In this document: positions 7,712 to 47,406 of the stretch, piece by piece
How positions within the stretch are numbered: the stretch's first letter is position 1
How the letters are laid out: every line of letters begins with the position of its first letter
IMG/VR virus record: IMGVR_UViG_3300047089_000307
Span: 1-64,000 of that record
Strand: one strand, 5' to 3'
Source of the DNA: a virus
Length of the DNA: 64,000 nt
Translations under genes and position numbers: made by a program
The notes under the pieces: model-generated
What the model saw: only the letters and a program-made list of their open reading frames with translations
Databases searched by the model: none
What the model was told of the DNA's origin: nothing

Positions 7712-7719
7712 CGATACTT

Positions 7720-7788: not shown

Positions 7789-7836
7789 CGAGGGGCCTCC
7801 CCGGGGCGCTGATGACAAAGAAGTACCGGGGATCAT

Positions 7837-7909: not shown

Positions 7910-7913
7910 CTGC

Positions 7914-7985
7914 GCCCCCGCCGGCGGATTCGGTCCAGGGTTTCCTAAACCCGGGTGCCTGGTTCGACTCCAGGCGGCGGCACCA
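7914..7985 (+). tRNA. tRNA-Arg(CCT)
   Basis: loop TTCCTAA, encoded CCA. Confidence 0.75.
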
Positions 7986-7987
7986 GT

Positions 7988-8016
7988 TTGCTCATCACTG
8001 CTGAGTCTGTTATAGT
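7988..8016 (+). promoter_or_regulatory. sigma70-type promoter
   Basis: TTGCTC-N17-TATAGT, then 6 nt to ATG 8023. Confidence 0.65.
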
Positions 8017-8022
8017 ATTCCC

Positions 8023-8538: not shown

Positions 8539-8687
8539 AGTATGGTACAGTATCTACGAGCGTAGCCTCAGCTTCCTGATCGCTCCCGGCCGTGTTGCCG
8601 GGAATCAGCCTCGTCGTCGTCATATCGCTCCAGCTTCAGCCTCCTTGATCCGTGTGTCCTCAGGCCGCGGGCCTGCGTACCGGAAGT

Positions 8688-8762
8688 GCGGGTTCAATTC
8701 CCGCCGGCTCCTCCCGTGGAGCCGTAGCTCAATTGGCAGAGCGTCGTTACTCAAGAAAACGG
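8688..8762 (+). ncRNA. circularly permuted tRNA-like module (possible CAA anticodon arm)
   Basis: T arm 8688-8704; CGGCTCC/GGAGCCG hairpin; D arm 8727-8742. Confidence 0.75.
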
Positions 8763-29907: not shown

Positions 29908-30262
29908 CAGCTTCCGGGACGACCGGGGCTACATCGAGGACCTTGTCGTCTCCCCGATTGACTCCGTGACGCGCATCATCACCAGGGCGGGCGCTGTCCG
30001 CGGGAACCACGTGCACCGGGAGACCGTGCAGTGGACGTACGTGGTCTCCGGGAGGCTCCTCATTGCTATCCGGCTCCAGGACGGGAGCATCCGCGAGCGT
30101 GAGCTTGGCCCGGGGGAGATGGCCCGGGAAGAGGCCGGGGCTCCTCACGCGTGGAAGGCCATCGCCGACTGTACCTGCCTTGTCTTCACCCGTGGCCCGC
30201 GATCAGGGGCCGGGTATGAGAGTGACACGACCAGGCTAGCCGAGGAGGACTGGCTGCTATGA
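29900..30262 (+). CDS. cupin, probable NDP-sugar isomerase/epimerase
   Basis: DDRG and RGNHVH motifs. Confidence 0.8.
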   Translation: MPSSFRDDRGYIEDLVVSPIDSVTRIITRAGAVRGNHVHRETVQWTYVVSGRLLIAIRLQDGSIRERELGPGEMAREEAGAPHAWKAIADCTCLVFTRGPRSGAGYESDTTRLAEEDWLL

Positions 30263-30921
30263 GGGACCTGCTCGTCGTGGTGCCCAGCCGGGGCCGCCCG
30301 CAGAATATCCAGCGGCTGCGAGAGGCCATGGACGTTACCTGCCAGGGGTACACGACGCTCCTCGTTGGCCTGGACGAGGACGACGAGGAAAGCTACCCCC
30401 GGCTGGGGAACGTGCAGTATGCAGTCCGGGCCGGCCTGCGCGGCTTTACCGCCTGGGCGAATGAGCTGGCCGTGCCCGCCGTGGGGGAGTACCGGTACAT
30501 CGGGGCGCTCGGTGATGACTGCGTGCCGGAGACGCCCGGCTGGGACGTGCGGATCATGGAGGCCCTGAACCGCCAGCCCTTCGCGTACGCCAACGACCTG
30601 TACCCGCTGCGCCCGCACGGCTCTCAGGTAACGCACGTCTTCACCAGGAGTGAAGTCGTCCGGGCGCTCGGCTATATCGGCGTCCCGGCTCTTACTCACA
30701 TGTACGTGGACGACGCCTGGGGGGCCTGGGGCGCGGCCTGCGGGATCGAGTACCTCCCCGGCGTGATCATTGAGCACTTGCACCACTCCTCCGGGAAAGC
30801 GCCGGCTGACGAGACGTACCGGCGGGCGGAGGAGACCTCGGCGCAGTGCCAGGCAGCCTTCGCCGAGTACTGCCGCGGAGAGCTGGACGAGGATGTCCGC
30901 AAGATCAAGGCGGTGCTGTGA
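30259..30921 (+). CDS. glycosyltransferase, GT-A/GT2-like
   Basis: VPSRGRP, GDD and HLH motifs. Confidence 0.8.
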   Translation: MRDLLVVVPSRGRPQNIQRLREAMDVTCQGYTTLLVGLDEDDEESYPRLGNVQYAVRAGLRGFTAWANELAVPAVGEYRYIGALGDDCVPETPGWDVRIMEALNRQPFAYANDLYPLRPHGSQVTHVFTRSEVVRALGYIGVPALTHMYVDDAWGAWGAACGIEYLPGVIIEHLHHSSGKAPADETYRRAEETSAQCQAAFAEYCRGELDEDVRKIKAVL

Positions 30922-30928
30922 CGTGAGG

Positions 30929-31390
30929 ATGCACGGCAAGTGCGGGTGGCTGTACCTGGAGAATGCCGATCCAGTGCTCCTGCGGGAGTGGATGTATGAC
31001 GCCAGCAGCTCCACCCTGGAGACCGTCCCTCCGGTGAACGTCGCCAGTGCCGTGCCTTTCCGGCTTTACCCGGCCGCGGCCATTTCCGAGATTCCCCCGC
31101 CTGCGGGCGACCAGCATTTCTGGGGCGTTATCAGGCCGGGGGGCCGGGTGCCGGGCATCCAACGCCATCCAGGAGGGTCAGAGCCCCGGGAGCTAGTTGG
31201 CAGGCTCGTCCGCCAGGTCTGGGTGCAGTGGGCGCGAGAGCAGCCGGACCCGAAGCCGTCCTGGCTACTGCCCTGGGAGGACTTGGACGACGGCCAGCGT
31301 GAGGCGGACATGCGCATCGGAGCGGCCTTGTTCGATGCGGGCTACCGGGCAGGGACGAACGGGGATGACGCGCTGGGAACGGCGCCATGA
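30929..31390 (+). CDS. hypothetical protein
   Basis: C-terminal PSWLLPWEDL...READMRIG motif. Confidence 0.55.
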   Translation: MHGKCGWLYLENADPVLLREWMYDASSSTLETVPPVNVASAVPFRLYPAAAISEIPPPAGDQHFWGVIRPGGRVPGIQRHPGGSEPRELVGRLVRQVWVQWAREQPDPKPSWLLPWEDLDDGQREADMRIGAALFDAGYRAGTNGDDALGTAP

Positions 31391-32025
31391 CGGGCGTGAC
31401 CTGGGACGTCCTGATCTGCTCGATCCCGCACCGGCACGTGACGCTGCTGGAGCTGCTCGCTGACCTTAACCGGCAATGGCAGCCGGGATTCGGCGCGCTG
31501 ATCTACCGGGACAACCTGGAGGACAGCTACGGGGCTAAGACGCAGACCCTGCTGAACAGGTCCCGGACACAGTACGTCTCCTGCATCGATGACGACGACC
31601 TGCTGGCCCCCGATGGCGTGGCGCGGATCATGGCGGCACTCCAGGCGCAGCCGGATTACGTGGGCTTCATGGTGCGCTGGACGACGGACGGCGTTCCGGA
31701 AGTCCCGGTTGAGCACTCGCTCGCGCACTCGAACTGGACTAACCGGCCGGACATCCTGCTCCGGGACATCACCCAGTTCAACCCGATCCGCCGGGAGCTG
31801 GCGCTGCTGGGCACCTGGGAGGGCGGGAATGAGGCTGAGCGCCGCTGGAGCAGCGGGGTGCGGGCCAGCGGCAAGTGCGTGAGCCAGGCATGGCTACCGG
31901 ACCCCCCGGTGTACTACTACCGGTCATCAAGCAAGGACACCTTCAAGATGGAGCGCTTCCCGATGCCGCAGGACCAGATTCCGCTGCTGCCGTCGTATCC
32001 CTGGCTGACGGTGGTCGGATCATGA
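31387..32025 (+). CDS. glycosyltransferase, GT2-like
   Basis: YVSCIDDDD motif. Confidence 0.8.
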   Translation: MTGVTWDVLICSIPHRHVTLLELLADLNRQWQPGFGALIYRDNLEDSYGAKTQTLLNRSRTQYVSCIDDDDLLAPDGVARIMAALQAQPDYVGFMVRWTTDGVPEVPVEHSLAHSNWTNRPDILLRDITQFNPIRRELALLGTWEGGNEAERRWSSGVRASGKCVSQAWLPDPPVYYYRSSSKDTFKMERFPMPQDQIPLLPSYPWLTVVGS

Positions 32026-32747
32026 GGGACCTGCTGGTCGCCGTGCCCAGCCGGGGACGCCCTGCGAGCATCGCCCGGCTTGCGCAGGCGATGAAGGACA
32101 CCTGCACGGCGGACACCGTGCTGGCGGTCGGCCTGGACGACGACGACGAGGGCCAGTACCCGCGGCTGCCCGGCGTGGAGTACGAGGTGCGCTCCGGGCT
32201 GCGCCGGGTCACCGCGTGGACCAATGAGCTGGCCGTCCCCCGGGCCGGGCAGTACCGGGCGGTCGGCTCCCTCGGCGATGACAACGTGCCGCGCACGCCC
32301 GGCTGGGACACGGCCATCCTCAAGGCCCTGGAGAGCACGCCGTTCGCATTCGGCAACGACCTGTACCCGCGGGACCCCGGGTCGATGAGCTGCCACATCT
32401 TCATGCGCAGTGAGGTGGTGCAGGCCCTCGGCTACGCGGGGGCGCCGACGATCTCGCACATGTACGTGGACGTGGGCTGGTTCGCCTGGGGCACTGCCTG
32501 CGGGATCACGTACCTGGACGACGTGGTCATCGAGCACATGCACTACTCCGTGGGCAAGTCCGGCCCGGATGAGGTCTACGCCGCCTCCTACGCGCTGACG
32601 AGCACGGACCTCCAGAACTGGCATGCCTACAGCCGCGGCGGCCAGCTGAACGCCGACATCGCGAAGCTGGGCGGGACGCCGTTCACCCCCGAGTCGCTGT
32701 CCGAGTTCAACCGGAGCATCAACGTGCCGGACCAGTGGCCGGGATGA
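32022..32747 (+). CDS. glycosyltransferase, paralog of 30259..30921
   Basis: MRDLLVAVPSRGRP, near-identical architecture. Confidence 0.8.
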   Translation: MRDLLVAVPSRGRPASIARLAQAMKDTCTADTVLAVGLDDDDEGQYPRLPGVEYEVRSGLRRVTAWTNELAVPRAGQYRAVGSLGDDNVPRTPGWDTAILKALESTPFAFGNDLYPRDPGSMSCHIFMRSEVVQALGYAGAPTISHMYVDVGWFAWGTACGITYLDDVVIEHMHYSVGKSGPDEVYAASYALTSTDLQNWHAYSRGGQLNADIAKLGGTPFTPESLSEFNRSINVPDQWPG

Positions 32748-33373
32748 CCCAGCCCCTGGTATCGGTGGTTACCCCCACGTGGCAGCGGCACGCGATGCTC
32801 ATGGACCGCTGCGTCCCGGCCGTGCAGGCGCAGGACTATGACAGCGTTGAGCACGTCATCGTCAGCGACGGCCCGGACAGCACGCTGGCCATCGTGCTCG
32901 GCATGCTGTGCGGCAAGAACGCCTGGGGCAACGTCGTCTACCGGGAACTGCCGGAGCATCCCGCCGGCGAGCACTGGGGCCATCATGCCCGGCTGGCCGG
33001 CCTGGAGGTGGCCCGCGGGCAGTACGTCACCTACTGCGATGACGATGACGCCCTCCGGCCCCGGCACTGCGCGCTGATGGCCGCGGCCCTGGACGCGGCC
33101 CCGGAGGCGGGCTTTGCCGTGAGCCGCATGACGTGCCACGGCGGCCCGCACGAGTCGGTGACCGGCTGGGGACCGCTGGCCTGCGGCAACGTGGGAACCC
33201 CGATGATCATGCACCGCCGGGAGATCCTGGCGCACGGGACCTGGGGGCCGGCGTCCTTCACCGAGGACTGGGACCTCGTGGAGCGCTGGCTGGACGCGGG
33301 AGTCAGCTACGTGAGCGTGGACGCGGAGACCAGCGATGCCTGGCCCTCCCTGTACAGGCAGGGGCAGCAATGA
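32744..33373 (+). CDS. glycosyltransferase, GT2
   Basis: VSVVTPT, VSDG, YCDDDD and EDW motifs. Confidence 0.88.
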   Translation: MTQPLVSVVTPTWQRHAMLMDRCVPAVQAQDYDSVEHVIVSDGPDSTLAIVLGMLCGKNAWGNVVYRELPEHPAGEHWGHHARLAGLEVARGQYVTYCDDDDALRPRHCALMAAALDAAPEAGFAVSRMTCHGGPHESVTGWGPLACGNVGTPMIMHRREILAHGTWGPASFTEDWDLVERWLDAGVSYVSVDAETSDAWPSLYRQGQQ

Positions 33374-33699
33374 CGGACGGCCATGACCGGGAACGTCATG
33401 CTCCTGCGCCGCAGCAGCGGGTGAGGGACCTGGAGCGCCAGTACGACGTTGCCCGGGAGCACGAGGAGAGGTACCGCAACGCCCTGCTGTGGGTGCGCAC
33501 GGTTGCCGGCATGCACTACCTCGGCGGGGCCTTCGAGCCCGAGCACATGCGCGACCTGGCCAACCTCGCCGCTAACGCGCTGGACGGCACGGACCTGCCA
33601 GACTGCGAGGAAAGCTCGGCCAAGGCCCGGAAGAAGGCCAGCAAGTGGGCGGAGCGGTTCGGGCGGGAGCTGGCTGAACAGGAGCTGGCGGAAGACTGA
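33370..33699 (+). CDS. hypothetical protein
   Basis: ATGA coupling. Confidence 0.6.
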   Translation: MTDGHDRERHAPAPQQRVRDLERQYDVAREHEERYRNALLWVRTVAGMHYLGGAFEPEHMRDLANLAANALDGTDLPDCEESSAKARKKASKWAERFGRELAEQELAED

Positions 33700-33700
33700 C

Positions 33701-34342
33701 ATGGGCATCATGAGCAAGAACGGCCTGGACGTGCGCAGTTACTACCATTGCTTCGCGGCCGGGGCCTGGGCCGACCCGGTACGGGATCACTTCGCCGCGA
33801 TGGGCCGCAGCGGCCTGGACGAGACGGCGATCACGGTTGGCCTCGTTGGACCGCCGCGGGACCGGGACAATGCCCGGCAGCGGATCGGCCTGCTGTGCCG
33901 CAACTGGTGCATTCCCGAGCCGGCGCAGTGGCGCGAGGCAGAGGAAGGATGGGAGCAGGTAACGCTCCAGGCCATCTACGACGACGTCCAGAAGATCCCC
34001 GGTGAGTACGCGGTCCTTTACGCGCACGCCAAGGGCGCCTACGGCGACACGGACACGAACCACGCCTGGCGCCGGTCGATGACCCGTCACGTCGTGCGCG
34101 GCTGGGAGGACTGCGTGACGCTCCTCGGCAGCCATGACATGGTCGGATGCCACTACGTCTCCAACGACCATTACCCGCAGGACCCGCCGTTCTTCGGAGG
34201 GAACTTCTGGTGGGCCCGGGCATCGTACCTGCGCCGGCTGCCCCCGCCGGAGAACGAGAACCGCTGGACCGCGGAGATCTGGGCGACGCAGGCGAACCCC
34301 CTGGTCCATGACTTGCGGCCAGGATGGCCTGACTACCAGTGA
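33701..34342 (+). CDS. glycosyltransferase-like protein
   Basis: LYAHAKG...WR..M...GNFWWA motif. Confidence 0.65.
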   Translation: MGIMSKNGLDVRSYYHCFAAGAWADPVRDHFAAMGRSGLDETAITVGLVGPPRDRDNARQRIGLLCRNWCIPEPAQWREAEEGWEQVTLQAIYDDVQKIPGEYAVLYAHAKGAYGDTDTNHAWRRSMTRHVVRGWEDCVTLLGSHDMVGCHYVSNDHYPQDPPFFGGNFWWARASYLRRLPPPENENRWTAEIWATQANPLVHDLRPGWPDYQ

Positions 34343-34343
34343 G

Positions 34344-35069
34344 GTGATCCCCGTCAAAGCTTTCATCATCTTCCGTGACCGGGTGACGTACGGTCGCCAG
34401 TGCCTTGCGGCGTTCCAGGCCGCGGGCCTTGAAACGACGATCGTTGACCACGGCAGTACCTGGCCGGGGGCAGTGGACTGGCTCAGGGAGCTGAAGAAGT
34501 CGGGCGTCCCGGTGGTTGACGAAGGCGGCGGCAACCCGCGGGACCTATGGCAGCGGGACTGGTTCCGCAGGGCGTGCGCCCGGGAGAAGTACGTCGTGAA
34601 TGACCCGGACGTCATACCGTCGCAGGAATGCCCGCCCGACTGGCCGCAGTACCTGTCGGAAGTCCTCGACAGGCACCCGAACTACCACAAGATCGGCCTC
34701 GGGCTGCGCATCGACCGCATCCCGGAGCACTACACGCAGCGCGATAACGTCATCGGCTGGGAAGCGCACTTCTGGGATCACGAGGTAGAGCACGGCGTGT
34801 ATCACGCGGACGTCGACACTACGCTGGCCGTGCACATCCCGATGATGGACATGGGCTGCCATTCCTTCAGCGCGATGCGCACGGGCTTCCCGTACGTTGC
34901 CGACCACGTGGCCTGGTACGAGGACTACCGGAACCTGAGCGAGGAGCTGGCGTACTACCACAGCCACGCGGAGGAGGGGATCTCCTGCTGGACGCCGCGG
35001 AAGGAAGCTCCGTGGGATGCCGGGGGAGCGATCCTGCCGGGGCGCGGCATGGCTACCGGGACTGACTGA
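34344..35069 (+). CDS. glycosyltransferase, GT2-like
   Basis: IVDHGSTW, DPDV and ADVDTT motifs. Confidence 0.75.
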   Translation: MIPVKAFIIFRDRVTYGRQCLAAFQAAGLETTIVDHGSTWPGAVDWLRELKKSGVPVVDEGGGNPRDLWQRDWFRRACAREKYVVNDPDVIPSQECPPDWPQYLSEVLDRHPNYHKIGLGLRIDRIPEHYTQRDNVIGWEAHFWDHEVEHGVYHADVDTTLAVHIPMMDMGCHSFSAMRTGFPYVADHVAWYEDYRNLSEELAYYHSHAEEGISCWTPRKEAPWDAGGAILPGRGMATGTD

Positions 35070-35206
35070 GCTGCTGTCTCATGGAGTATCCTCACCGGCA
35101 TGAGTGACTGGGCTGGCAAGCCGAGCATGCGAAGCAAGGCCCGGCTGGTCATGGCCGCGGATGGCGCGAGCATCGAGGCGGCGATGGCCGCGCCCGGGGC
35201 GGGAAA

Positions 35207-35419
35207 GTGAAGTCCCGCGTCACGCTGGAGCCGTCTGAGCTCAGTGAGGACGGACGGGTCATCGAAGCCTGGATCAGCGTCGAGCGCCTCGGTGACTGCG
35301 ACGATGACGCTACGGACCGGGACCTGTTCCTGTCCCCGGAGGAGATGCAGTTCCTGTACCAGGGGATGAGGCGCTACTACGAGGACGGCGTGTGGACGAC
35401 CGGGACGGTGGAGTGGTGA
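35207..35419 (+). CDS. hypothetical protein
   Basis: codon bias. Confidence 0.55.
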   Translation: MKSRVTLEPSELSEDGRVIEAWISVERLGDCDDDATDRDLFLSPEEMQFLYQGMRRYYEDGVWTTGTVEW

Positions 35420-35877
35420 GCGCCAAGTGGGACGAGCGGTACCTGAACCTGGCCACGCTGGTGTCGTACTGGAGCAAGGACCGCAGTACGAAGGTCGGCT
35501 GCGTGATCGTGGGCGAGGCCGGCCAGGTGCTCTCCACCGGGTACAACGGCTTCCCGCGCGGCATTGGCGACGATGTAGCGCAACGGCACGCTCGCCCGGC
35601 CAAGTACCTGTGGACCGAGCACGCTGAGCGGAATGCCGTCTATAACGCGGCCCGGACGGGCACGTCCCTGCTCGGGTCGTCGCTGTACCTGCCGTGGTTC
35701 CCCTGCGCGGACTGCGCCAGGGCCATCATCCAGTCGGGGATAGCCGTCCTCGTGGTTGTCGAGGTCAAGCGCGGCGACGCCCAGTGGGATGAGAGCATCG
35801 CGGTCAGCAAGGAGATGCTCGCGGAGGCCGGAGTCATTGTCCGCTGGCACGAGCCGGGGGTGAGCGCGAGCGCGTGA
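35416..35877 (+). CDS. dCMP deaminase
   Basis: GYNG, HAERNA and PCADCA motifs. Confidence 0.92.
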   Translation: MSAKWDERYLNLATLVSYWSKDRSTKVGCVIVGEAGQVLSTGYNGFPRGIGDDVAQRHARPAKYLWTEHAERNAVYNAARTGTSLLGSSLYLPWFPCADCARAIIQSGIAVLVVVEVKRGDAQWDESIAVSKEMLAEAGVIVRWHEPGVSASA

Positions 35878-36041
35878 GCGAGATCTTCTTCCTGCTCGTG
35901 TGCCGGGAGTGCGGTAACCCGGGAAAGCCCTTGATCATGCCCTTCGGCTCGGCGGCCGACCGGGGGAAGTGGGCCTCGGAGCACACGAGGGCCACCGGGC
36001 ATGACCGCTGGTGGGTGCAGGACGAGGTGCGGGAATCATGA
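35874..36041 (+). CDS. small hypothetical protein
   Basis: GTGA coupling; CREC and H..TGH motifs. Confidence 0.5.
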   Translation: MSEIFFLLVCRECGNPGKPLIMPFGSAADRGKWASEHTRATGHDRWWVQDEVRES

Positions 36042-36430
36042 GCGGCTGCCAGCGGGAGGAGAGGCCAGTGCATGAGGTCAAGGTCACCGGCAACATCATG
36101 GCGGACGGCGTCGATATCTGGGTGACGATGAAGTTCGAGGGATCGCCGCGTCGTATCCTGCACTTCCGGGAGGGCCTTCCGGACTGGGACGAGGCGGACG
36201 GGACCGCGCAGCCCCCGACGATGACGCTGCCTGATGACGCGGGCCGGGCGCTGCTGGAGCAGCTGCTACGGCATTACGCCGGGTCGCAGGACCTGCACAC
36301 GGTCCGCGCTGACCTGGTGCACGAGCGCAAGCGCGTTGACAATCTCATCAGCGCGCTCACGCAGGCGCTGGCCGTGACCATTCAGCAGCGTATTACAGTG
36401 TCTTCTCGTGAGGATCTTCGCAGGCCATGA
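36038..36430 (+). CDS. hypothetical protein
   Basis: ATGA coupling. Confidence 0.6.
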   Translation: MSGCQREERPVHEVKVTGNIMADGVDIWVTMKFEGSPRRILHFREGLPDWDEADGTAQPPTMTLPDDAGRALLEQLLRHYAGSQDLHTVRADLVHERKRVDNLISALTQALAVTIQQRITVSSREDLRRP

Positions 36431-37481
36431 TGGTGGGTCAGGCTGCATGTACTACCGGATCAAGGTCCCCCTGGAGGAGCTGGCCCGGCACGGTCATGAG
36501 GTGACCTTCCGCTCCGGCGGGAATGAGGAGGGTAACCGGCCCATCACCCTGGCGGAGATGGCCGAGCATGACGTGGTGATCGGGCAGCGGTTCAATCACT
36601 ACGCGGGCATGGGCACCTGGCGCCGCGCCCGCGGGCCGTCCAGCCGGCTGGTCTACGAGATTGATGACGACGTCTTCTCCGTGACCCCGGTCAACTGGCA
36701 GGCGTACCACGTCTACAGCCAGCCGGAGGTCCGCGAGGCTGTCATGCACCAGGCCCAGGTATCGGACCTGGTGACCGTGACCACGGAGCACCTGGCCGCG
36801 GTGATGCGCGAGCACACCGGCAACGGCAACGTCCTGGCGCTGCCGAACTGCGTCCCCGGCTGGGTGCTGGACATGGAGCGCAGGCCCCGGCAGCGCCCGG
36901 CGATCGGCTGGGCGGGCGGCGCCAGCCACGGCAGCGACGTCGGGCTGCTCGTCAGCCCCGTGCGCCGGTTCCTGAAGCGGTTCCCCGGCTGGGACTTCCA
37001 GCTTGGCGGCACGGACTTCCGGGAGACCTTCGCCCGGGAGGGGTCGCCGCGCGGGAGGCTGCTGCACGCCCGGTGGGTGCCGGTCTGCGAGGACGCGCGG
37101 GGCTATTACGAGACCGCGGACTTCGACATCGGCCTGGCCCCGCTGGCGGGAACCCCGTTTGACCTGTCGAAGTCCTGCGTCAAGGTACTGGAGTACGCGG
37201 CCCGGGGCATTCCCTCGATCGCCAGTGACTGCGAGGTTTACCGGTCGTTCATCCGCCATGGCGAGAACGGCTTCCTGGTGAAGAGGGACCATGAGTGGCT
37301 GAAGTACGCATCCGAGCTGGCCAGCGACGGGGGCCTGCGGCTGGCGATGGGCCAGGCAGCGCGGGACACGGCGCGGGAGTGGACGATCGAGGCGAATTAC
37401 CACCTATGGGAGCAGGCGTACCGGAGCCTGTTTAAGGTCAAGTCTCTTAGCGTATTATGGCCTTCGTGCGCGAGCCAGTAG
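36408..37481 (+). CDS. glycosyltransferase, GT-B/GT4-like
   Basis: YYRI, EIDDD, DIGLAPL..F..KS.VK.LEY and HGENG motifs. Confidence 0.88.
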   Translation: MRIFAGHDGGSGCMYYRIKVPLEELARHGHEVTFRSGGNEEGNRPITLAEMAEHDVVIGQRFNHYAGMGTWRRARGPSSRLVYEIDDDVFSVTPVNWQAYHVYSQPEVREAVMHQAQVSDLVTVTTEHLAAVMREHTGNGNVLALPNCVPGWVLDMERRPRQRPAIGWAGGASHGSDVGLLVSPVRRFLKRFPGWDFQLGGTDFRETFAREGSPRGRLLHARWVPVCEDARGYYETADFDIGLAPLAGTPFDLSKSCVKVLEYAARGIPSIASDCEVYRSFIRHGENGFLVKRDHEWLKYASELASDGGLRLAMGQAARDTAREWTIEANYHLWEQAYRSLFKVKSLSVLWPSCASQ

Positions 37482-39241
37482 CCAGGCAGTACCGTTACCG
37501 GGCCTATCCCGATGAGGAGCAGGCTGACCTCCTGGACTTCTACGCAGCGGGCGCCCGCGCGTTCTGGAATAAGAACGTCGCGTGGCTGCGCGCCATGGAG
37601 GGAAGTGAGGGGCATGACGACCTTGGCGCTGGCCGCCAGCTGAGCGAGGCTTACGCTTACCTCGCCAGCGTGCCCGGCATCGCTGAGGCCCTGAAGAGCA
37701 GGAAGCATCCGGAGCATGAGCGCTGGACGGCCTTCCTGCGAAAGGCAGAAAGGCCGCGCCAGCCCGGCTGGCATGCGTGGACGCGGCATTACGGGGGTGC
37801 CAGGCTCCGCGGGCAGCTGAGCGGGAACTTCTCTGCCGCCGTGCACGCTGCGCGGGAGAGCGGGATGACGTTCTGGCACGGGGGCGAGCAGCACCCGGTC
37901 TCGGCGGTCCCGTCGAAGGTCCTGCACGGGGCGTGCGGGAGCAAGGGCCAGCTCAAGGCCGCCGTGGACGCTGTCATGAAGAAGCGCGCCGCTGGCAAGC
38001 GCGCAGAGCTGCCCCGCTGGCGTGCCCGGCATGAGAGCCAGAACCTGCGCTGGCAAGTCCAGGATGGTCCCCGGAACGCGACCCGGGAGTCCCTGGTGAC
38101 GGTAACGGGCACGCGGCACGCCACCGTGCCGCTGGTAACGACGCGCGGGCACGAGGGTAATAAGAGCCTGCGCATCCGCTATCATCGCGAGCTCCCCGCG
38201 GACGCCTCAGTGTCCTTCATGCAGGTGACCTGGAATCCGGGGACCGGCTGCTACTTCGTGACGCTCACGCTGACGACCGCGCAGTACGAGGTTCCGGCCA
38301 CGACGGGCATGGCCGGCATCGACCGGGGCATCGTAAAGGCTGCTGTCACTTCGGACGGGGAGTACTACGATTCTCCGGGACTGAACCAGGGGCGCCGTCG
38401 CCGCGAGCTCCTGCTCCAGCAGTCCCTTGACTGGAAGCGCCGCGTGCTGCCGTGCAAGGGCCGGTGCGCGCACGAGCCAGGGCAGTGCTGGCGCACGTCA
38501 CTACGGTATGCACGGGTCGTGACGGCCCGGCAGCGGCTCCTGGACGCCCAGGAGGACCTCATCGATGACGGGGCGCACAAATTCTCCCGGGCTATCGCCC
38601 GCCGGTACGCGGTCGTCGTGCTTGAGGACCTGGCGAACCTGATGACGGCGTCCACGGCGAAGGGCACGGTAGCCGCCCCCGGCGTGAGCGTGCGCGCCGC
38701 CGCCGGACGCAACCGGGAGGTACGCGCGGCTAACTGGGGGCGCATTGAGCAGTACCTGGGGTATAAGGCAGGGCAGCTCCTCGGCGTCCCGGCGCCGTAT
38801 ACGTCGCGGACATGCCCGCGATGCGGGTATGTTAGCGTCATGAACCGGCCCTCCCAGGCGGAGTTCCGGTGCGGGTCCTGCGGACTCAGCGGCAACGCTG
38901 ACGTGATCGCGGCCGGCAATATCGTTAATGCAGGGAAAACCGCCCGCGCGCTGCGGGATAACGGGCAGGGATCGTCCTCCGGGATTAACCGGGGGCCTGG
39001 CGCTAGCCGGGAGCCTGCCAACACTCACAACTTTACAGTGGCCCCGGGCGAGCGCTGCGGTAGTGCGCCCGATCCCGGTCAGCGCTCGCAGGCAGGTGAG
39101 CAGCCAGGAATCGTTACCGAGCTCGACGGAACGGTGATCCCGGAGACGTGGGGCATCCCCGGTGCTCGCATCCGCGGGGGAAACCGCAGGTCACGACGGG
39201 CGAAAAAGCCGAGCGGTGGCAACACTGCCGGAGCCGGGTGA
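37457..39241 (+). CDS. cas12: TnpB-derived CRISPR-associated Cas12-like nuclease (compact type V effector); start may be GTG 37466
   Basis: YRYRAYP HTH, RuvC-I GIDRG, RuvC-II VLEDL, CPRC/CGSC Zn ribbon, RuvC-III ADVIAAGNI; abuts CRISPR array. Confidence 0.9.
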   Translation: MAFVREPVARQYRYRAYPDEEQADLLDFYAAGARAFWNKNVAWLRAMEGSEGHDDLGAGRQLSEAYAYLASVPGIAEALKSRKHPEHERWTAFLRKAERPRQPGWHAWTRHYGGARLRGQLSGNFSAAVHAARESGMTFWHGGEQHPVSAVPSKVLHGACGSKGQLKAAVDAVMKKRAAGKRAELPRWRARHESQNLRWQVQDGPRNATRESLVTVTGTRHATVPLVTTRGHEGNKSLRIRYHRELPADASVSFMQVTWNPGTGCYFVTLTLTTAQYEVPATTGMAGIDRGIVKAAVTSDGEYYDSPGLNQGRRRRELLLQQSLDWKRRVLPCKGRCAHEPGQCWRTSLRYARVVTARQRLLDAQEDLIDDGAHKFSRAIARRYAVVVLEDLANLMTASTAKGTVAAPGVSVRAAAGRNREVRAANWGRIEQYLGYKAGQLLGVPAPYTSRTCPRCGYVSVMNRPSQAEFRCGSCGLSGNADVIAAGNIVNAGKTARALRDNGQGSSSGINRGPGASREPANTHNFTVAPGERCGSAPDPGQRSQAGEQPGIVTELDGTVIPETWGIPGARIRGGNRRSRRAKKPSGGNTAGAG

Positions 39242-40039
39242 GTGAGGCGACACGCTCTTGCCGTGCAGCTGGTCAATCTGGCCCTGGTGGCAACACTGCC
39301 GGAGCCGGGTGAGTGAGGCGACTGGGCACCGGGCGAGGCGTTCTGCCCGGCGTTGCCGGTGGCAACACTGCCGGAGCCGGGTGAGTGAGGCGACTGGGCA
39401 CCGGGCGAGGCGTTCTGCCCGGCGTTGCCGGTGGCAACACTGCCGGAGCCGGGTGAGTGAGGCGACAGGTGGTGGGACGGGCTGCCCGGGTTGGTCAGCA
39501 TGGTGGCAACACTGCCGGAGCCGGGTGAGTGAGGCGACCAGCCCGCGCCGTCGCTCCGGAGAACCTTGTATTCGGTGGCAACACTGCCGGAGCCGGGTGA
39601 GTGAGGCGACAAGCAGCAGACGCCGCCGGTGAGCGTGTCCTCGGGCCGTGGCAACACTGCCGGAGCCGGGTGAGTGAGGCGACTCGGTGCGCCTGCGGCT
39701 ACGGGTGGCCGGCTTGATCGGTGGCAACACTGCCGGAGCCGGGTGAGTGAGGCGACGGCTTCCAGGCGTCGGCGAGCCGGACCACCTCGCGCGTGGCAAC
39801 ACTGCCGGAGCCGGGTGAGTGAGGCGACCGCGACTGCTGCAATGCGCTAGACAAGGCAGGTGGCAACACTGCCGGAGCCGGGTGAGTGAGGCGACAGTGC
39901 AGCGCTGATGTCAGCCTGCGCCCGCGACTTGGTGGCAACACTGCCGGAGCCGGGTGAGTGAGGCGACATCAGGACCGGCCTTACCGGTCGACGCCTCCCG
40001 GCGGTGGCAACACTGCCGGAGCCGGGTGAGTGAGGCGAC
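39216..40039 (+). CRISPR. CRISPR array: 12 identical 36-nt repeats, 11 spacers (31-37 nt)
   Basis: GTGGCAACACTGCCGGAGCCGGGTGAGTGAGGCGAC at 39216, 39287, 39359, 39431, 39503, 39575, 39648, 39721, 39793, 39860, 39932, 40004. Confidence 0.98.
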
Positions 40040-40040
40040 T

Positions 40041-40065
40041 GCTGCGGTATCCTGGCCACCGCAGC
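40041..40065 (+). terminator. hairpin directly after last repeat
   Basis: GCTGCGGT/ACCGCAGC 8-bp stem, no T tract. Confidence 0.45.
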
Positions 40066-40080
40066 CGGGAGGAGCACGTG

Positions 40081-40290
40081 ATGACGCAGGTACCGCAGAC
40101 GGAGTCCCGCGGCGGCGACAAGCCGGACTGGGGCAAGGCCGTCGCCGGCGAGCCGCTGCCGCAGCTGGGCGAGGAGTACCCGGAGCCGGACAGCGGGCAG
40201 GCCCCGTTGCAGGACGGCCAGCCCTTGCGGCCAGAGGACAACCGGGGCGTTACGGAGCCTCCCGGCGGCAATGACCCGGAGTCGCAGTAG
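40081..40290 (+). CDS. acidic hypothetical protein
   Basis: GGAGG RBS. Confidence 0.6.
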   Translation: MTQVPQTESRGGDKPDWGKAVAGEPLPQLGEEYPEPDSGQAPLQDGQPLRPEDNRGVTEPPGGNDPESQ

Positions 40291-40496
40291 TGGCGCACGG
40301 CGGCTTTCACGGCCAGGTGGGCCAGGGCGGCACCGGTCCGGACGAGGCGGTACCCGAGTGCCCGGTCTGCCACGCCTGCGGCGGCGGGGGCCACGGCGGC
40401 TTCTGCCCGAACCGGGACCAGCCTGACCCGGCGCGCTGGACGACCTTGCCGCCGGCCGGGTTCACCGCGGCGCCACCGCATGAAGGGAAGCCATGA
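40290..40496 (+). CDS. small Cys-rich hypothetical protein
   Basis: CPVCHAC motif. Confidence 0.5.
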   Translation: MAHGGFHGQVGQGGTGPDEAVPECPVCHACGGGGHGGFCPNRDQPDPARWTTLPPAGFTAAPPHEGKP

Positions 40497-43827: not shown

Positions 43828-46800
43828 GTGACCGCCACCTTTGACTCGGTCGGCCCGAGCTCCAGCGGCTTTACCTCCGCGGCGACGCCGTACTCGTGGT
43901 CCCATACGCTGGGCGCCGGCGCGACGCTGCTCATCGTGGGGCTGTCGTGCGGCACTGACGGCAACACGCTGACCGTCACCGCGGGCGGCGTGCCGATGAC
44001 CACTACCGCCGGGTCGACCGCCTGGAAGCGGCACACGAACGACGGCACCGCCGGGTTCGGGCAGATTTACGTGCTGCCCGCGCCGCCGACCGGCACGATC
44101 ACGATCGCGGTCTCGGGGGCGACGACCGGCGACCGGGTCAGCGGCGGATCGCTGGCGTTCGCGAGCACCCCCCTGGACTCCACGGCTTACGGCATCCCGG
44201 TTTCTGCCGCAGGGCAGTCCGCCTCCGCCACGGTGAACGTCACGACGACGGCGTCCTCCAGCCTGGTCGCCGCGTTCATGGCCTCCGGGCAGGGCGCCGG
44301 GGCCGTGAGCGGCACGTCTGCCAGCCGGTTCGTGGCCAACGGGGACACTAACTCCGGGGCCGGCAACGATGCCGGGCAGACCGCGCCGGGCACGGGCGGC
44401 AGCGTCGCCATGACGCGGGCGCTCACCTCTGACTTCTGGGCGATATTCGGCATCGAGGTGATGGCCGGGGCCGCTCCGCCAGGCGCCCCGCCAGCGCAGC
44501 CCGGCAGCCGGACGTGGCGCCGCAGCTTCCGCCGCAGTCAGTCCAGCGTCATCCAGGTCAGCCAGGATGTCGTGGCCACCGCCGGGCTGGCCACTGCCAC
44601 CGGGGCCGCGCCGGACGTGGCGTTTGCGACGACGACGCAGCCGGCGCCGGCGCAGCAGCTGGGCGGCGGGACGTGGAAGCGGCACTGGCGCAACCCGATG
44701 GTGCCGTGGTACCGCTTCCAGGAGCTGCCGTACATCACTGGCCTGGCGGGCGGGGGGCGCGGCTACTTCACCGACCAGTTCGGAAATCCCCGGCTGGTGT
44801 GGGGCGACGCCGTCTGGGCGCTGTGCGGCAACGCGGGCCGGTGGAACAGCGGCAACTGGCGGGCTGACTACGACACCTTCACCAGCAACCGCGCCGCGCA
44901 GGGCTTCACTGCCTTGTACGGCAAGCCGATGGGGACGCTCCAGTCCTCTAACATCGACAATAACGGCGGGACGTTCGACTCGCTGTTCCCCTTCCAGGGC
45001 GCGGCGCCGACTACGGGAACCGCCGGGGCCAACCCCAGCACCGGCCTGACCGAGGCGTACTGGCAGCGAATCGATTACTTCCTGGCCGTGTGCAAGGCCA
45101 AGGGCATCACGTTCTTCATGAACGCGGTGGGCTACGCCTCGGACTTCGTAGCAGGCGGTTCCGGGCCGCTGGCCAGCAAGAGCGCCGCGGAGTTCCAGGC
45201 GTACGGCGTCGCGCTCGGCAACCGGTACAAGAACCAGCCGAACATCGTCTGGATGGTCGCGGACGACTATTTCGGCGGATCTGACGACGCGCTGCTGGAC
45301 GGGTTCCTCACCGGGCTGCGCTCATCCGGGGACGCGCACGTCATCTCGATCGAGAACATGCCGGAGTCCACGAGCCGTAACACGCTGGACGCGTCTCCCT
45401 CGGTGGCGGCATGGGGCACCGCGAACGCCCAGTTCGACTTCACTTACTCCTATAACCAGGAGTACTACGGGGTCGAGCAGGCGTACAAGGAAGGCAGCCC
45501 TGTCCCGGTCATCCAGGGGGACGGGTACTTCTACCAGGGCAGCAACGCCTACGCGGGCGGCTCGGGGGCGTTCGCGTACGACCAGGCGTTCCGGCAGGCT
45601 GCCTGGTGGTCCCTGGCCGCCGGCGCCCGCGGCAAGGTCCACGGGTCGGAGTCCATCTGGCAGTACCAGTCCACTGCGCTGGCCAACTCGGCGACGGACT
45701 GGTTCTACGCGAACAACGCCCTGGTCATTCGCACGGTGGTCGAGGGCCTGACGGGGTGGCAGAACCTCTTCCCGGACCTCAGCAGCCAGCTGGTCACCGC
45801 AGGCCGGGGCACCAGGGCCAGCGCGTTCGCCTCCGGCGGCGGCGGCGGGCAGTACGAGGTGGCGTTCACCAGCAGCTACGTGGCCGCGTCGGCCACCCCG
45901 GATTACTCGCTGGCTTTGCTGTACCTGCCGCGGGCCACGACCATCACCGTCAATACCGCGCTGCTGGGACCGGGCTTCACCGCTAACTGGGTGGACCCGG
46001 TCAGCGGGGCGATGTCATCAGCAGGCACCGGGCCGGCGTTCAATTCCACGGCCAAGGGCAGCAACAGCCAGGGCGACCCGGACTGGGCGCTGGTGCTCCA
46101 GGGGCCGCCGGTCACGCCGTCCAGCGTGGTGCCCCCGCAGCCCGGCTCTGTCAGCTGGCGCAGGCAGTTCCGCAGGGTGCAGCAGCTCATGGCCAGCCCG
46201 GCGACCGGGGCCAGTCCTGACCTCCAGGTAACTGCCCAGCTGGCAACGGGCACGGGGTCCGCCCTTGCCCCCGGCGCCGGCCTTACCCCCCCGGTATCGT
46301 CCGGTGCCGGATCGGCAGGCGCCCCCGGCATCGGCCTGGCCGGCGGCTCCGCGGCCGGCAGCGGCGTGGCCCAGCCGCCGGGCGTGCAGCTGGCAACGGG
46401 CCTGGCCACGGGCGCCGGGTCAGCCGGGGCACCGGGCATCGGGCTGGCGGGGGGATCGGCTGCCAGTTCCGGCGTGGCCCAGTCGCCGGGCGTGCAGCTG
46501 GCAACAGGGCTGGCGACGGGCACAGGCTCCGCCCCGGGACCTGGCGCCGGCCTGGCCGCGGCGCTCGCGCCCGGCAGCGGCGCCGCGGGAGCGCCGGGCG
46601 TGCAGCTGACCCCCGGTGCGGCCTCCGGCACGGGCAGCAGCCAGCCCCCGCAGCCGCAGTTCGTGATGAGCGCCGGCCTCAGCCAGGGCACCGGGACGGC
46701 GCTCGCGCCCGGCATCGGCCTGACGGGCGGGCCGGCTGCCGGCAGCGGCGTGGCCCAGTCGCCGGGTGACGAGCTTACCCCGGGCCTTGCCGGGAGCTCT

Positions 46801-47406
46801 GCCGCAGCGGGCGCGGCCGGGACGGGCCTGACCCCGGGCCTGGCCAGCGGCACGGGCACGGCCTTCGGCCCCGGGACCTCAGTCGGCGGGAACCTTCAGG
46901 TCAGCGCGGGCCTGGCAGCGGGCACGGGCACGGCCCTGGCGCCGGGCACTGGCCTGGCAGGCGGCTCCGCGGGCGGCAGCGGCGCTGCGGCATCCCCTGG
47001 CGTGCAGCTGACGCCGGCCCTGGCCGGCGGTACGGGCAGCGGGCAGGGAGCCTCTTCTGCCTCGGCCGCCGGCGCCGCGACCGCCACCGGGACGGGCGCT
47101 GCCCAGCCTCCGGCAGGCGGCAATGCAACGGGCGCCGGCCTCGCGACCGGGGCCGGGGCGGCGCAGGCCGGCGCCAGGGCGCTAACCCCGGCCCCGGCCG
47201 TTGCCCTGGCGGCAGCGCAGCCGCCGTCCCTGTCAGTTACCGCTACCGCCCAGGCGGCCCTGGCGCCGGGCCAGGCGCTGAACGCCACTGCGCAGGGACA
47301 GGCCGCGGTCATCAAGGGCTACAGCACGGGCACGGCAGTCACGCAGCCATCGCAGGGATCAGCGGGCGTGAGCGCGACCGCGACGTCTCAGGGCGGGGTT
47401 ACGTAA
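43828..47406 (+). CDS. large virion-associated protein with glycoside-hydrolase-like (DUF4038-type) core and Gly/Ala-rich tail
   Basis: GDAVW, RAAQGF, RYKNQPNIVW..DD, WWS..AGA and W.DP.SG..DWALVL motifs. Confidence 0.75.
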   Translation: MTATFDSVGPSSSGFTSAATPYSWSHTLGAGATLLIVGLSCGTDGNTLTVTAGGVPMTTTAGSTAWKRHTNDGTAGFGQIYVLPAPPTGTITIAVSGATTGDRVSGGSLAFASTPLDSTAYGIPVSAAGQSASATVNVTTTASSSLVAAFMASGQGAGAVSGTSASRFVANGDTNSGAGNDAGQTAPGTGGSVAMTRALTSDFWAIFGIEVMAGAAPPGAPPAQPGSRTWRRSFRRSQSSVIQVSQDVVATAGLATATGAAPDVAFATTTQPAPAQQLGGGTWKRHWRNPMVPWYRFQELPYITGLAGGGRGYFTDQFGNPRLVWGDAVWALCGNAGRWNSGNWRADYDTFTSNRAAQGFTALYGKPMGTLQSSNIDNNGGTFDSLFPFQGAAPTTGTAGANPSTGLTEAYWQRIDYFLAVCKAKGITFFMNAVGYASDFVAGGSGPLASKSAAEFQAYGVALGNRYKNQPNIVWMVADDYFGGSDDALLDGFLTGLRSSGDAHVISIENMPESTSRNTLDASPSVAAWGTANAQFDFTYSYNQEYYGVEQAYKEGSPVPVIQGDGYFYQGSNAYAGGSGAFAYDQAFRQAAWWSLAAGARGKVHGSESIWQYQSTALANSATDWFYANNALVIRTVVEGLTGWQNLFPDLSSQLVTAGRGTRASAFASGGGGGQYEVAFTSSYVAASATPDYSLALLYLPRATTITVNTALLGPGFTANWVDPVSGAMSSAGTGPAFNSTAKGSNSQGDPDWALVLQGPPVTPSSVVPPQPGSVSWRRQFRRVQQLMASPATGASPDLQVTAQLATGTGSALAPGAGLTPPVSSGAGSAGAPGIGLAGGSAAGSGVAQPPGVQLATGLATGAGSAGAPGIGLAGGSAASSGVAQSPGVQLATGLATGTGSAPGPGAGLAAALAPGSGAAGAPGVQLTPGAASGTGSSQPPQPQFVMSAGLSQGTGTALAPGIGLTGGPAAGSGVAQSPGDELTPGLAGSSAAAGAAGTGLTPGLASGTGTAFGPGTSVGGNLQVSAGLAAGTGTALAPGTGLAGGSAGGSGAAASPGVQLTPALAGGTGSGQGASSASAAGAATATGTGAAQPPAGGNATGAGLATGAGAAQAGARALTPAPAVALAAAQPPSLSVTATAQAALAPGQALNATAQGQAAVIKGYSTGTAVTQPSQGSAGVSATATSQGGVT

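What the first reader, a model, noticed from the sequence alone, without database searches (positions are those of the whole stretch)
39252..40003. Spacers are codon-phase-locked and mostly antisense: predicts a TTN-type PAM and phage targets
Seen: in the 10 unique spacers, positions 3, 6, 9... are G/C in about 103 of 117 cases (hand count), so spacer 5' ends sit at a fixed codon phase. Reverse complements read as plausible protein: S1 QGQIDQLHGKSV, S2 GNAGQNASPGAQ, S4 MLTNPGSPSHHL, S5 EYKVLRSDGAGW, S8 REVVRLADAWKP, S10 KSRAQADISAAL. S4 resembles the TNP...H.LK motif of terminase large subunits, and a following Lys codon would give TT at -3/-2. Inference: a 5'-TTN PAM (AAN is the alternative), + strand transcription, and targeting of other actinophages' packaging and tail genes. 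I saw no self-match in this window.
Basis: inference. Interest (0 to 1): 0.72.

Follow-up and report, generated by a model that had tools for sequence, protein, structure and literature searches.

The report
Phage CRISPR spacers locked to codon phase
A large high-GC phage carries a small Cas12-type CRISPR system whose spacers all begin at the same codon phase; the likeliest cause is a TT-type recognition motif next to each target, and one spacer exactly matches a rival phage's terminase gene beside TTC.

Summary
There are 12 identical 36-nt repeats (39216-40039) and 11 spacers, 10 of them unique. Spacer positions 3, 6, 9... are G/C in 103 of 117 cases, against 57% and 66% in the other two phases.

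The window is the first 64 kb of a 158.6-kb phage record. The array follows directly on a 594-aa TnpB/Cas12-like gene (37457-39241), whose reading frame ends inside repeat 1.

Spacer 4 has a 36/36 protospacer in an IMG/VR actinophage contig. It lies antisense in the large terminase gene and has 5'-TTC before it.

Simulation shows that TT (or any A/T pair) at -3/-2 puts wobble bases at spacer positions 3, 6, 9 on either strand. It also favours antisense hits about 62:38. The phase holds only when counted from the 5' end, which fits + strand crRNA and a 5' PAM.

Limits: there is only one protospacer, and no match was found for the other spacers in the searches run. The tail-gene targets are unverified. 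The effector belongs to a rare, phage-linked clade. Its best defence-profile match is V-U4/Cas12n, which uses AAN, but the margin is narrow.

Verdict: a real system, and a new variant of a known kind.

The parts
37457..39241 (+). Effector gene, 594 aa: a TnpB-derived Cas12-like protein. Its stop codon (TGA) lies inside repeat 1.
   Evidence: Family matches: Pfam Cas12f1-like_TNB 5.5e-14; NCBIfam guided_TnpB 109.5 bits against a cut-off of 100; PADLOC Cas12u4 122.9 bits over residues 5-516. Catalytic residues: RuvC D289, E390 and D482 and two CxxC pairs are conserved. Fold: AF2 mean pLDDT 76.7, with the tail disordered at 507-549 and 568-594 apart from a confident stretch at about 550-560; Foldseek best hits are TnpB 8h1j, AsCas12f and Cas12m2. 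The database gene call P0001 (458 aa) is N-terminally truncated.
39000..39215 (+). 3' end of the effector ORF, carrying motifs conserved at the nucleotide level. Candidate omegaRNA/tracrRNA-like scaffold that runs straight into repeat 1 (inferred).
   Evidence: GCTCGCA occurs at 39084 and 39164, in two different reading frames and 80 nt apart. The same pair with the same 80-nt spacing is found in L007, L008 and L012 (77 nt in L010). Background is 0.09 per kb. Each copy is followed by CAGGTSA in most of these loci. Amino-acid conservation is poor here and pLDDT is below 50 over most of it.
39216..40039 (+). CRISPR array: 12 identical 36-nt repeats and 11 spacers.
   Evidence: On the + strand the repeat folds with its two ends paired (-12.8 kcal/mol). 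The 36-nt repeat of homolog locus L007 forms the same hairpin with compensatory changes. No Rfam match.
39252..39286 (+). Spacer 1 (35 nt): in phase, antisense.
   Evidence: No hit in IMG/VR or JGI metagenome contigs.
39323..39430 (+). Spacers 2 and 3 (identical 36-nt duplicates at 39323-39358 and 39395-39430) with the repeat between them.
   Evidence: in phase, strand ambiguous. No IMG/VR hit. Only noise-level similarity to tape-measure genes.
39467..39502 (+). Spacer 4 (36 nt): perfect protospacer in an actinophage large terminase gene, antisense, with 5'-TTC before it.
   Evidence: L003 11179-11214 is a 36/36 match. The gene L003:10356-11693(-) is Terminase_3, 1.3e-10. There is also a 31/36 match to TerL of the Streptomyces phage TP1604 group.
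39539..39574 (+). Spacer 5 (36 nt): in phase, antisense.
   Evidence: No IMG/VR hit.
39611..39720 (+). Spacers 6 and 7 (37 nt each, at 39611-39647 and 39684-39720): in phase from the 5' end only.
   Evidence: S7 has no IMG/VR hit. S6 was not given its own pattern scan.
39757..39792 (+). Spacer 8 (36 nt): in phase, antisense.
   Evidence: No IMG/VR hit.
39829..39859 (+). Spacer 9 (31 nt): in phase from the 5' end, sense orientation.
   Evidence: Not given its own pattern scan.
39896..39931 (+). Spacer 10 (36 nt): in phase, antisense.
   Evidence: No IMG/VR hit.
39968..40003 (+). Spacer 11 (36 nt): the one spacer that is not in phase.
   Evidence: P(class 3) = 0.13. This is compatible with the roughly 30% of TTN sites expected to fall out of phase or in non-coding DNA. 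Not given its own pattern scan.
40040..40080 (+). Post-array segment: a GC-rich hairpin, then GGAGGAG and the start of the next + strand gene. The array therefore sits inside a + strand gene string.
   Evidence: fold -16.1 kcal/mol, not better than shuffles.

Best explanation
This is a phage-borne, minimal type V CRISPR system: one TnpB-derived Cas12-like effector followed by its array. It is transcribed on the + strand, so each crRNA is a repeat-derived 5' handle followed by a spacer.

The spacers were taken from coding DNA of competing high-GC actinophages, next to a 5' PAM with T at -3 and -2 (TTN, observed as TTC).

The phase lock follows from codon usage. Target genomes have about 87-89% G/C at third codon positions. 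TT therefore occurs almost only as the first two bases of TTC/TTG codons, or, on the opposite strand, opposite AAG/AAC codons. In both cases the wobble bases fall on spacer positions 3, 6, 9... The lock is thus a by-product of PAM selection in GC3-rich targets. The antisense excess arises because Lys/Asn codons outnumber Phe/Leu(TTG) codons.

Inferred, not shown: the effector keeps a canonical D-E-D RuvC triad, so it probably cuts TTN-flanked DNA of rival phages (for example their terminase gene) during co-infection. Spacer uptake must rely on machinery outside the 158 kb seen, because no Cas1 or Cas2 is present there. A scaffold RNA embedded in the 3' end of the effector ORF probably assists the crRNA.
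For: Array and phase lock. The count is 103/117, 9 of 10 spacers are in phase, and Monte Carlo gives 321/200,000.

Phage context: terminase, portal, protease and major head genes lie in the window. The record is one 158,651-bp virus contig.

Effector. RuvC D289/E390/D482 are conserved.

Direct protospacer: S4 matches L003 36/36, antisense in a Terminase_3 gene. The 5' flank is ...CCTTC and the sense strand reads HHL-K.

Simulation on 114 confident genes of this phage: TTN sites put wobble at p3 in 67% of cases (TTS 73%), against 33% with no PAM. 63% of the in-phase TTN sites are antisense. TT at -4/-3 or -2/-1 gives 15-18%.

Spacer-only log-likelihood against no PAM, in nats: TTS 7.1, TTN 6.5, ATN 5.7, AAN 4.4, TNN 3.1, NTN 2.0.

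In the target TerL, 42 of 70 TTN sites are in phase, 34 antisense and 8 sense.

5' anchoring: the four spacers of 31, 35, 37 and 37 nt give 40/45 G/C at p3 counted from the 5' end, but a flat 62-72% counted from the 3' end.

The repeat ends in GAC, so the array itself lacks the PAM.

A second family member, L007, has a 36-nt repeat and a 39-nt spacer with 12/13 G/C at p3.

No Cas1 or Cas2 in the record.
Against: Only one of the 10 unique spacers has a protospacer, so the PAM logo has n = 1. Six others (S1, S2, S5, S7, S8, S10) found nothing in IMG/VR, and S1 also found nothing in JGI metagenome contigs. S6, S9 and S11 were covered only by whole-array BLAST against INPHARED and PLSDB, which gave only noise for all spacers but S4.

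Spacer statistics alone cannot separate TTN from ATN or TAN, where the likelihood ratio is only about 2-4.

The best defence-profile match for the effector is V-U4/Cas12n, by a narrow margin. That family recognises 5'-AAN (PMC12216341).

The 31/36 homologous site in Streptomyces phage TP1604 is preceded by AAC.

The observed 9/10 in phase is somewhat above the simulated 67-73%. By my arithmetic P is about 0.09-0.15, which is not a conflict.

Nuclease activity, crRNA ends, any tracrRNA and the source of spacers are all untested. The record is estimated at 75% complete, so Cas1 and Cas2 could lie in the unseen part.
Confidence: 0.75

Rival explanations
1. Same system, but the PAM is A-rich (5'-AAN), as in the best-matching named family, Cas12n/V-U4. 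AAN gives the same codon phase lock.
For: PADLOC Cas12u4 is the best profile, and RdCas12n is the best PDB sequence hit at 1.2e-8. AAN puts wobble at p3 in 67% of sites, the same as TTN. The TP1604-type homolog of the S4 target has AAC at -3..-1.
Against: The only perfect protospacer is preceded by TTC. Its other flank read on the opposite strand is GAT, so neither orientation gives AAN. AAN predicts mostly sense spacers (63%), but the spacers are mostly antisense; the likelihood ratio is about 8:1 for TTN. The TP1604 site has 5 mismatches and an extra codon, so it is not the target.
Confidence: 0.06
2. The PAM is looser than TT at -3/-2, for example a single required T (TNN, NTN, YTN or NTC), or any A/T pair (WWN).
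For: n = 1 flank. ATN and WWN score within about 1 nat of TTN on spacer statistics.
Against: Single-T motifs give only 41-52% in phase and score 3.4-5.4 nats below TTN. The observed lock is 9/10. TTC fits TTN-type motifs best.
Confidence: 0.13
3. The periodicity is a chance or compositional effect with no link to a PAM. A variant is that the array is read from the minus strand with a motif on the other side of the protospacer.
For: Only 10 spacers. All sequence here is GC-rich.
Against: Chance is about 4e-4 to 2e-3. The signal is anchored at the 5' end and is lost from the 3' end in the spacers that are not 36 nt. The effector is TnpB/Cas12-type, whose guides lie 3' of the scaffold and whose PAM/TAM is 5' (established knowledge). 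Homolog loci keep the same order of gene, motifs, repeat and guide on one strand.
Confidence: 0.04

Closest known systems
Cas12n / type V-N (formerly V-U4), e.g. RdCas12n, AcCas12n
   Same: A compact TnpB-like effector found in Actinobacteria-associated DNA. It gives the best PADLOC profile (Cas12u4) and the best PDB sequence hit (9J09). Both have a disordered C-terminal tail, and Cas12n has a guide-RNA scaffold overlapping the 3' end of its ORF (PMC12216341). Here the tail is disordered and nucleotide-conserved motifs lie in the ORF 3' end.
   Different: Cas12n recognises 5'-AAN; here the one protospacer has 5'-TTC and the spacer strand bias fits TTN. Sequence similarity is weak: phmmer aligns only residues 344-495, and the Cas12u4 score is barely above a Cas12f profile. 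This system is phage-borne, and the ORF ends inside repeat 1.
Cas12m / type V-M (formerly V-U1), e.g. Mycolicibacterium mucogenicum Cas12m2
   Same: Similar size (596 aa), an actinobacterial setting, a single crRNA and a 5'-TTN PAM (PMC10442227). Foldseek TM is about 0.43.
   Different: Cas12m2 has a non-canonical His-Asp-Asp RuvC site and silences by binding. This protein keeps Asp-Glu-Asp. Sequence similarity is marginal (PDB 23vw, E 4.6e-4, C-terminal part only).
Phage-encoded compact type V systems (CasPhi/Cas12j, CasLambda/Cas12l, Cas12p 'hacker')
   Same: A single small Cas12 plus a short array on a phage genome, no Cas1 or Cas2, and a spacer aimed at another phage. All appear among the Foldseek hits.
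   Different: Those effectors are structurally more remote (lower-ranked, TM 0.22-0.37). This one is closer to TnpB and Cas12f, and comes from a high-GC actinophage-like genome with no cultured relative (MCP below 30% identity except over partial matches).
TnpB with omegaRNA (IS200/IS605, IS607) and transposon-CRISPR intermediates (TranC)
   Same: It passes the NCBIfam guided_TnpB cut-off, and its best structural match is ISDra2 TnpB. Conserved RNA-like motifs overlap the ORF 3' end and lead directly into the guide region. Homolog L009 has no array.
   Different: There is no transposase or IS context. There are 12 repeats with diverse foreign spacers instead of one fixed guide. The protein carries extra REC-side and Cys-rich insertions compared with 400-aa Streptomyces TnpBs.

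Membership tests
Type V CRISPR-Cas (Cas12 effector plus array) | Single effector with a split RuvC domain (Asp, Glu, Asp) and a zinc-ribbon TNB insert | tested here: met
   D289 and E390 are invariant; D482 and the four Cys are invariant among close homologs and >= 90% conserved across 22 sequences. Pfam Cas12f1-like_TNB. TnpB/Cas12 fold.
Type V CRISPR-Cas (Cas12 effector plus array) | An adjacent repeat-spacer array with foreign-derived spacers | tested here: met
   12 identical repeats and 10 distinct spacers. S4 is 36/36 to another phage's terminase gene.
Type V CRISPR-Cas (Cas12 effector plus array) | A 5' PAM on the non-target strand, with the guide 3' of the repeat handle | tested here: inconclusive
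   One protospacer with 5'-TTC, phase anchored at the spacer 5' end and likelihood ranking. There is no functional assay and no RNA data.
Cas12n / V-U4 (V-N) | Membership by sequence profile | tested here: inconclusive
   PADLOC Cas12u4 gives 122.9 bits over residues 5-516, but a Cas12f profile gives 113.4. phmmer to RdCas12n gives 1.2e-8 over 150 residues only. No curated cut-off is available.
Cas12n / V-U4 (V-N) | A-rich 5'-AAN PAM | tested here: not met
   The flank of the perfect protospacer is TTC. Spacer strand bias favours TTN over AAN about 8:1. This rests on n = 1.
Cas12n / V-U4 (V-N) | tracrRNA overlapping the ORF 3' end, and a disordered C-terminal tail | tested here: inconclusive
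   The tail has pLDDT below 50 over 507-549 and 568-594. Paired GCTCGCA/CAGGTSA motifs lie at fixed spacing in five loci. No clear anti-repeat was found and there is no RNA evidence.
Cas12m / V-M | Non-canonical HDD RuvC site (binding without cleavage) | tested here: not met
   The canonical D-E-D triad is conserved. The Cas12m2 description comes from PMC10442227.
Cas12m / V-M | 5'-TTN PAM with a single crRNA | tested here: inconclusive
   The TTC flank and a self-folding repeat hairpin fit. Independence from a tracrRNA is not shown.
Cas12f (V-F) | Curated family model | tested here: not met
   NCBIfam CRISPR_Cas12f2 gives 47.6 bits against a cut-off of 450, and C2c8 gives 35 against 350.
TnpB (OMEGA) superfamily | Curated subfamily model | tested here: met
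   NCBIfam NF040570 guided_TnpB gives 109.5 bits against a cut-off of 100.
TnpB (OMEGA) superfamily | IS element context (TnpA, element ends, one fixed guide) | tested here: not met
   The neighbours are glycosyltransferase and small phage genes. A 12-repeat array stands in place of a single guide.

The most novel reading that the evidence does not exclude
The effector and its roughly 15 known relatives form an unclassified type V lineage that is so far seen mostly on phage-like contigs. In this reading it sits at the TnpB-to-Cas12 transition. An omegaRNA-like scaffold is embedded in the ORF 3' end and runs straight into the first repeat. Some members have arrays and at least one has none. The PAM is T-rich, unlike the A-rich PAM of the best-matching named family (V-U4/Cas12n). 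A by-product is a general method: in GC3-rich systems the offset and A/T nature of a PAM can be read from spacers alone, through codon phase.
Probability: 0.4. Interest if true: 0.7.

Novelty: new variant of a known kind. Interest (0 to 1): 0.55.

Why it matters
It shows that a PAM's position (-3/-2), its A/T character and the crRNA strand can be inferred from as few as ten spacers when the targets have high GC3. One database protospacer confirmed the inference. I found no paper describing this in two literature searches, so I cannot say whether it has been published.

Biologically, it adds a compact Cas12-like effector (core about 500 aa, intact RuvC) from an uncultured 158-kb actinophage. 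The effector appears to be used against rival actinophages. Its clade has about 15 cluster representatives among 1.84 billion and none in 185,579 reference prokaryote genomes.

Such an enzyme, native to high-GC hosts, could be of practical interest for editing actinomycetes. The locus architecture bears on how TnpB guide RNAs became CRISPR arrays.

Tried and rejected
Searches that found nothing:
- Wobble-degenerate patterns for S1, S2, S5, S7, S8 and S10 in IMG/VR: 0 hits each.
- S1 in JGI metagenome contigs: 0.
- The exact repeat in IMG/VR and in metagenome contigs: 0.
- BLASTN of the whole array against INPHARED phages and PLSDB plasmids at E <= 10: only noise apart from the 31/36 terminase hit. 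The S2 similarity to tape-measure genes is not significant.
- The rest of the target contig carries no other protospacer.
- The L007 spacer has no phage hit.
- Effector relatives in 185,579 reference genomes: only two remote haloarchaeal TnpBs.

Analyses that did not resolve the question:
- RNAduplex search for an anti-repeat. Energies near the locus (-39 to -42 kcal/mol) sit within the top 1-5% of the genome background, so they do not discriminate. A 7+3-bp complement at 39017-39028 and a shifted counterpart in L002 are noted but could be chance.
- RNAalifold on the ORF 3' ends gave only a weak consensus.
- The L002 repeat-like pair (74-nt spacing) has no phase signal by my hand count and was not counted as an array.
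- The idea that the 72-nt units are a protein-coding tandem repeat is rejected. The repeats are 100% identical while the spacers are unrelated, unit lengths of 67, 71 and 73 nt break the reading frame, and one spacer is foreign DNA.

Full report
**What is there.**
Reading 39000-40300 and searching for repeats shows 12 exact copies of a 36-nt repeat (GTGGCAAC...GGCGAC). They start at 39216, 39287... 40004. The 11 spacers are 31-37 nt long, and S2 and S3 are identical, so 10 are unique. The finding's coordinates (39252-40003) run from the first base of spacer 1 to the last base of spacer 11.

**The observation.**
The other two phases give 69/121 and 78/118.

A codon-usage likelihood trained on this genome's own genes assigns 9 of 10 unique spacers to the frame class whose wobble bases fall on positions 3, 6, 9 (P > 0.8 each). 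S11 is the exception. The chance of this at 1/3 per spacer is about 4e-4 (my arithmetic). Ten random coding 36-mers from the same genome reach 103 G/C in 321 of 200,000 trials.

Orientation is clearly antisense for S1, S4, S5, S8 and S10, and probably antisense for S7. It is ambiguous for S2 and S6, and sense for S9.

**Context.**
The window is the first 64 kb of a single 158,651-bp virus record with 68.8% GC. CheckV estimates it as 75% complete. It encodes a large terminase (18709-20103), portal, protease and major head protein. A block of sugar-modifying genes follows.

Next comes a 594-aa ORF (37457-39241), whose stop codon lies inside repeat 1. The major head protein is below 30% identical to any deposited phage over near-full length. 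No Cas1 or Cas2 is found in the record. There is no second array and no self-targeting spacer.

**The effector.**
- Pfam finds Cas12f1-like_TNB, and NCBIfam's guided_TnpB model passes its cut-off.
- PADLOC's best profile is Cas12u4 at 122.9 bits over residues 5-516, just ahead of a Cas12f profile at 113.4.
- The best PDB sequence match, 9J09, is RdCas12n.
- RuvC D289, E390 and D482 and the two CxxC pairs are conserved.
- The AlphaFold model has mean pLDDT 76.7, with the C-terminal tail largely disordered from residue 507.
- By Foldseek it is closest to ISDra2 TnpB, AsCas12f and Cas12m2, with TM 0.4-0.6 and no single subtype standing out.

The family is rare. There are 15 cluster representatives at E <= 1e-30 among 1.84 billion. 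None is found in 185,579 reference prokaryote genomes. Several lie next to phage genes.

**The protospacer.**
I searched IMG/VR with a pattern of spacer 4 in which every third base was N. It found one contig. The match is in fact 36/36. It lies antisense in a 445-aa Terminase_3 gene.

That gene's closest cultured relatives are the terminases of Thermobifida phage P1312 (47%) and Streptomyces phages (41-46%). It is unrelated to this phage's own terminase.

The 5' flank is ...GGACCTTC. The sense strand reads ...MLTNPGSPSHHL-K-V, so a Lys AAG codon supplies T at -3 and -2.

By chance, an AAN codon would follow in about 5-8% of cases.

There an extra Leu codon puts AAC before the site. With five mismatches, that is a homolog and not the target.

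**Why a TT PAM locks the phase.**
GC3 in this phage is 88.6%. I simulated PAM motifs over 114 confident genes.
- TTN sites put wobble bases at p3, p6... in 67% of cases (TTS 73%), against 33% with no PAM.
- TT moved by one base (TTNN or NTT) gives 15-18%.
- AAN, ATN and TAN give 63-67%.
- Among in-phase TTN sites 63% are antisense; for AAN it is 37%.

I combined these frequencies with the per-spacer frame likelihoods. The log-likelihood gain over no PAM, in nats, is TTS 7.1, TTN 6.5, ATN 5.7, AAN 4.4, TNN 3.1 and NTN 2.0.

So the spacers alone say that an A/T pair sits at -3/-2, with a mild preference for TT. The protospacer then says TT. The antisense excess needs no separate explanation.

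**Strand.**
The four spacers that are not 36 nt keep the periodicity only when counted from their 5' end (40/45 at p3). Counted from the 3' end the signal is flat. The fixed end is therefore next to the upstream repeat. This matches Cas12/TnpB geometry (scaffold 5' of the guide, PAM 5' of the protospacer) with + strand transcription.

The effector, the array and the following genes are all on the + strand. The repeat hairpin is more stable on the + strand. The 36-nt repeat of homolog locus L007 forms the same hairpin with compensatory changes.

**Family architecture (seen in passing).**
In five homolog contigs the assembly stops 3-54 nt after the effector gene. This is what short-read assemblers do at repeats. 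L007 shows a full 36-nt repeat, a 39-nt spacer with 12/13 G/C at p3, and the first bases of a second repeat.

The last 160 nt or so of the ORFs carry GCTCGCA twice. The two copies are in different reading frames and exactly 80 nt apart in four loci (77 nt in a fifth), and most are followed by CAGGTSA. The protein here is poorly conserved and predicted disordered over most of this stretch.

I read this as an RNA scaffold embedded in the ORF, as described for Cas12n and TnpB (PMC12216341). It is an inference: no convincing anti-repeat or consensus fold was obtained, and Rfam has nothing.

**Comparison with known systems.**
- It works like other phage-borne compact type V systems.
- By profile it is nearest to V-U4/Cas12n, but the defining AAN PAM is not met on the one flank available.
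- It shares size and a TTN PAM with Cas12m2. That enzyme has an HDD RuvC site and only binds DNA (PMC10442227), whereas this protein keeps D-E-D.
- It fails the curated Cas12f and C2c8 models.

I therefore file it as a new variant of a known kind.

**Limits.**
There is one protospacer only. Six other spacers found nothing in IMG/VR, and S1 also found nothing in JGI metagenome contigs. S6, S9 and S11 were covered only by whole-array BLAST against INPHARED and PLSDB, which gave only noise for all spacers but S4. Prophages in actinobacterial genomes could not be searched. 'Tail gene' targets are unverified. Cleavage, crRNA processing, a tracrRNA and the route of spacer uptake are inferred and not shown.

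Earlier first-reader notes in this scan on the same stretch describe a phage-encoded TnpB-like nuclease running into its array. My results agree with them. They were not used as evidence.

Noticed in passing
window 39084-39194; L007 2103-2212; L008 1745-1854; L010 2641-2747; L012 7412-7498: The heptamer GCTCGCA occurs twice near the 3' end of the effector ORF. The two copies are in different reading frames and exactly 80 nt apart in four loci (77 nt in L010), and most are followed by CAGGTSA. This looks like an RNA scaffold embedded in the coding sequence.
   Followed up: partly
L007, L008, L010, L011, L012 (contig ends): Five contigs carrying effector homologs end 3-54 nt after the gene. This suggests assembly breaks at downstream repeat arrays. 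L007 shows one full repeat, a spacer and the start of a second repeat.
   Followed up: partly
L009 1920-2080: An effector homolog next to a K1-lyase-like tailspike fragment has no array. It has three copies of GCGTAGCGAC downstream, sharing the GCGAC ending of the repeats. It may be a single-guide (TnpB-like) member of the family.
   Followed up: no
window 37457-37864: The public gene call for the effector (P0001, 458 aa) starts 136 codons too late. The N-terminal 136 residues align with homologs, match the Cas12u4 profile from residue 5, and are modelled with pLDDT above 90 for residues 10-45.
   Followed up: yes
window 27803-37481: A block of sugar-modification genes sits between the head genes and the CRISPR locus: NAD-dependent epimerase, C-methyltransferase, cupin, GT2 and GT1 glycosyltransferases. 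A deoxycytidylate-deaminase-like gene lies at 35392-35877, with a sub-threshold match to an anti-phage dCTP deaminase. This could mean virion glycosylation or nucleotide modification.
   Followed up: no
window 43828-47406: A 1192-aa protein with an apiosidase-like glycoside hydrolase domain and a collagen-binding-type domain. It is a candidate depolymerase or host-envelope enzyme.
   Followed up: no
window 39323-39430: Spacers 2 and 3 are identical, so one repeat-spacer unit has been duplicated. This points to recombination within the array rather than two separate acquisitions.
   Followed up: no
contig of P0003 (no DNA available), gene 6989-8731: The 580-aa homolog sits among small phage-type genes (Phage_gp49_66). 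It is followed by a 586-nt gene-free gap, which is room for about eight 72-nt repeat-spacer units.
   Followed up: no
window 39017-39028 against repeat positions 24-34; L002 about 2586-2596: A short complement to the 3' half of the repeat (7 + 3 bp) lies about 190 nt upstream of repeat 1. L002 has a shifted counterpart that is complementary to its own different repeat-like sequence. This could be an anti-repeat, but matches of this length are expected by chance.
   Followed up: partly
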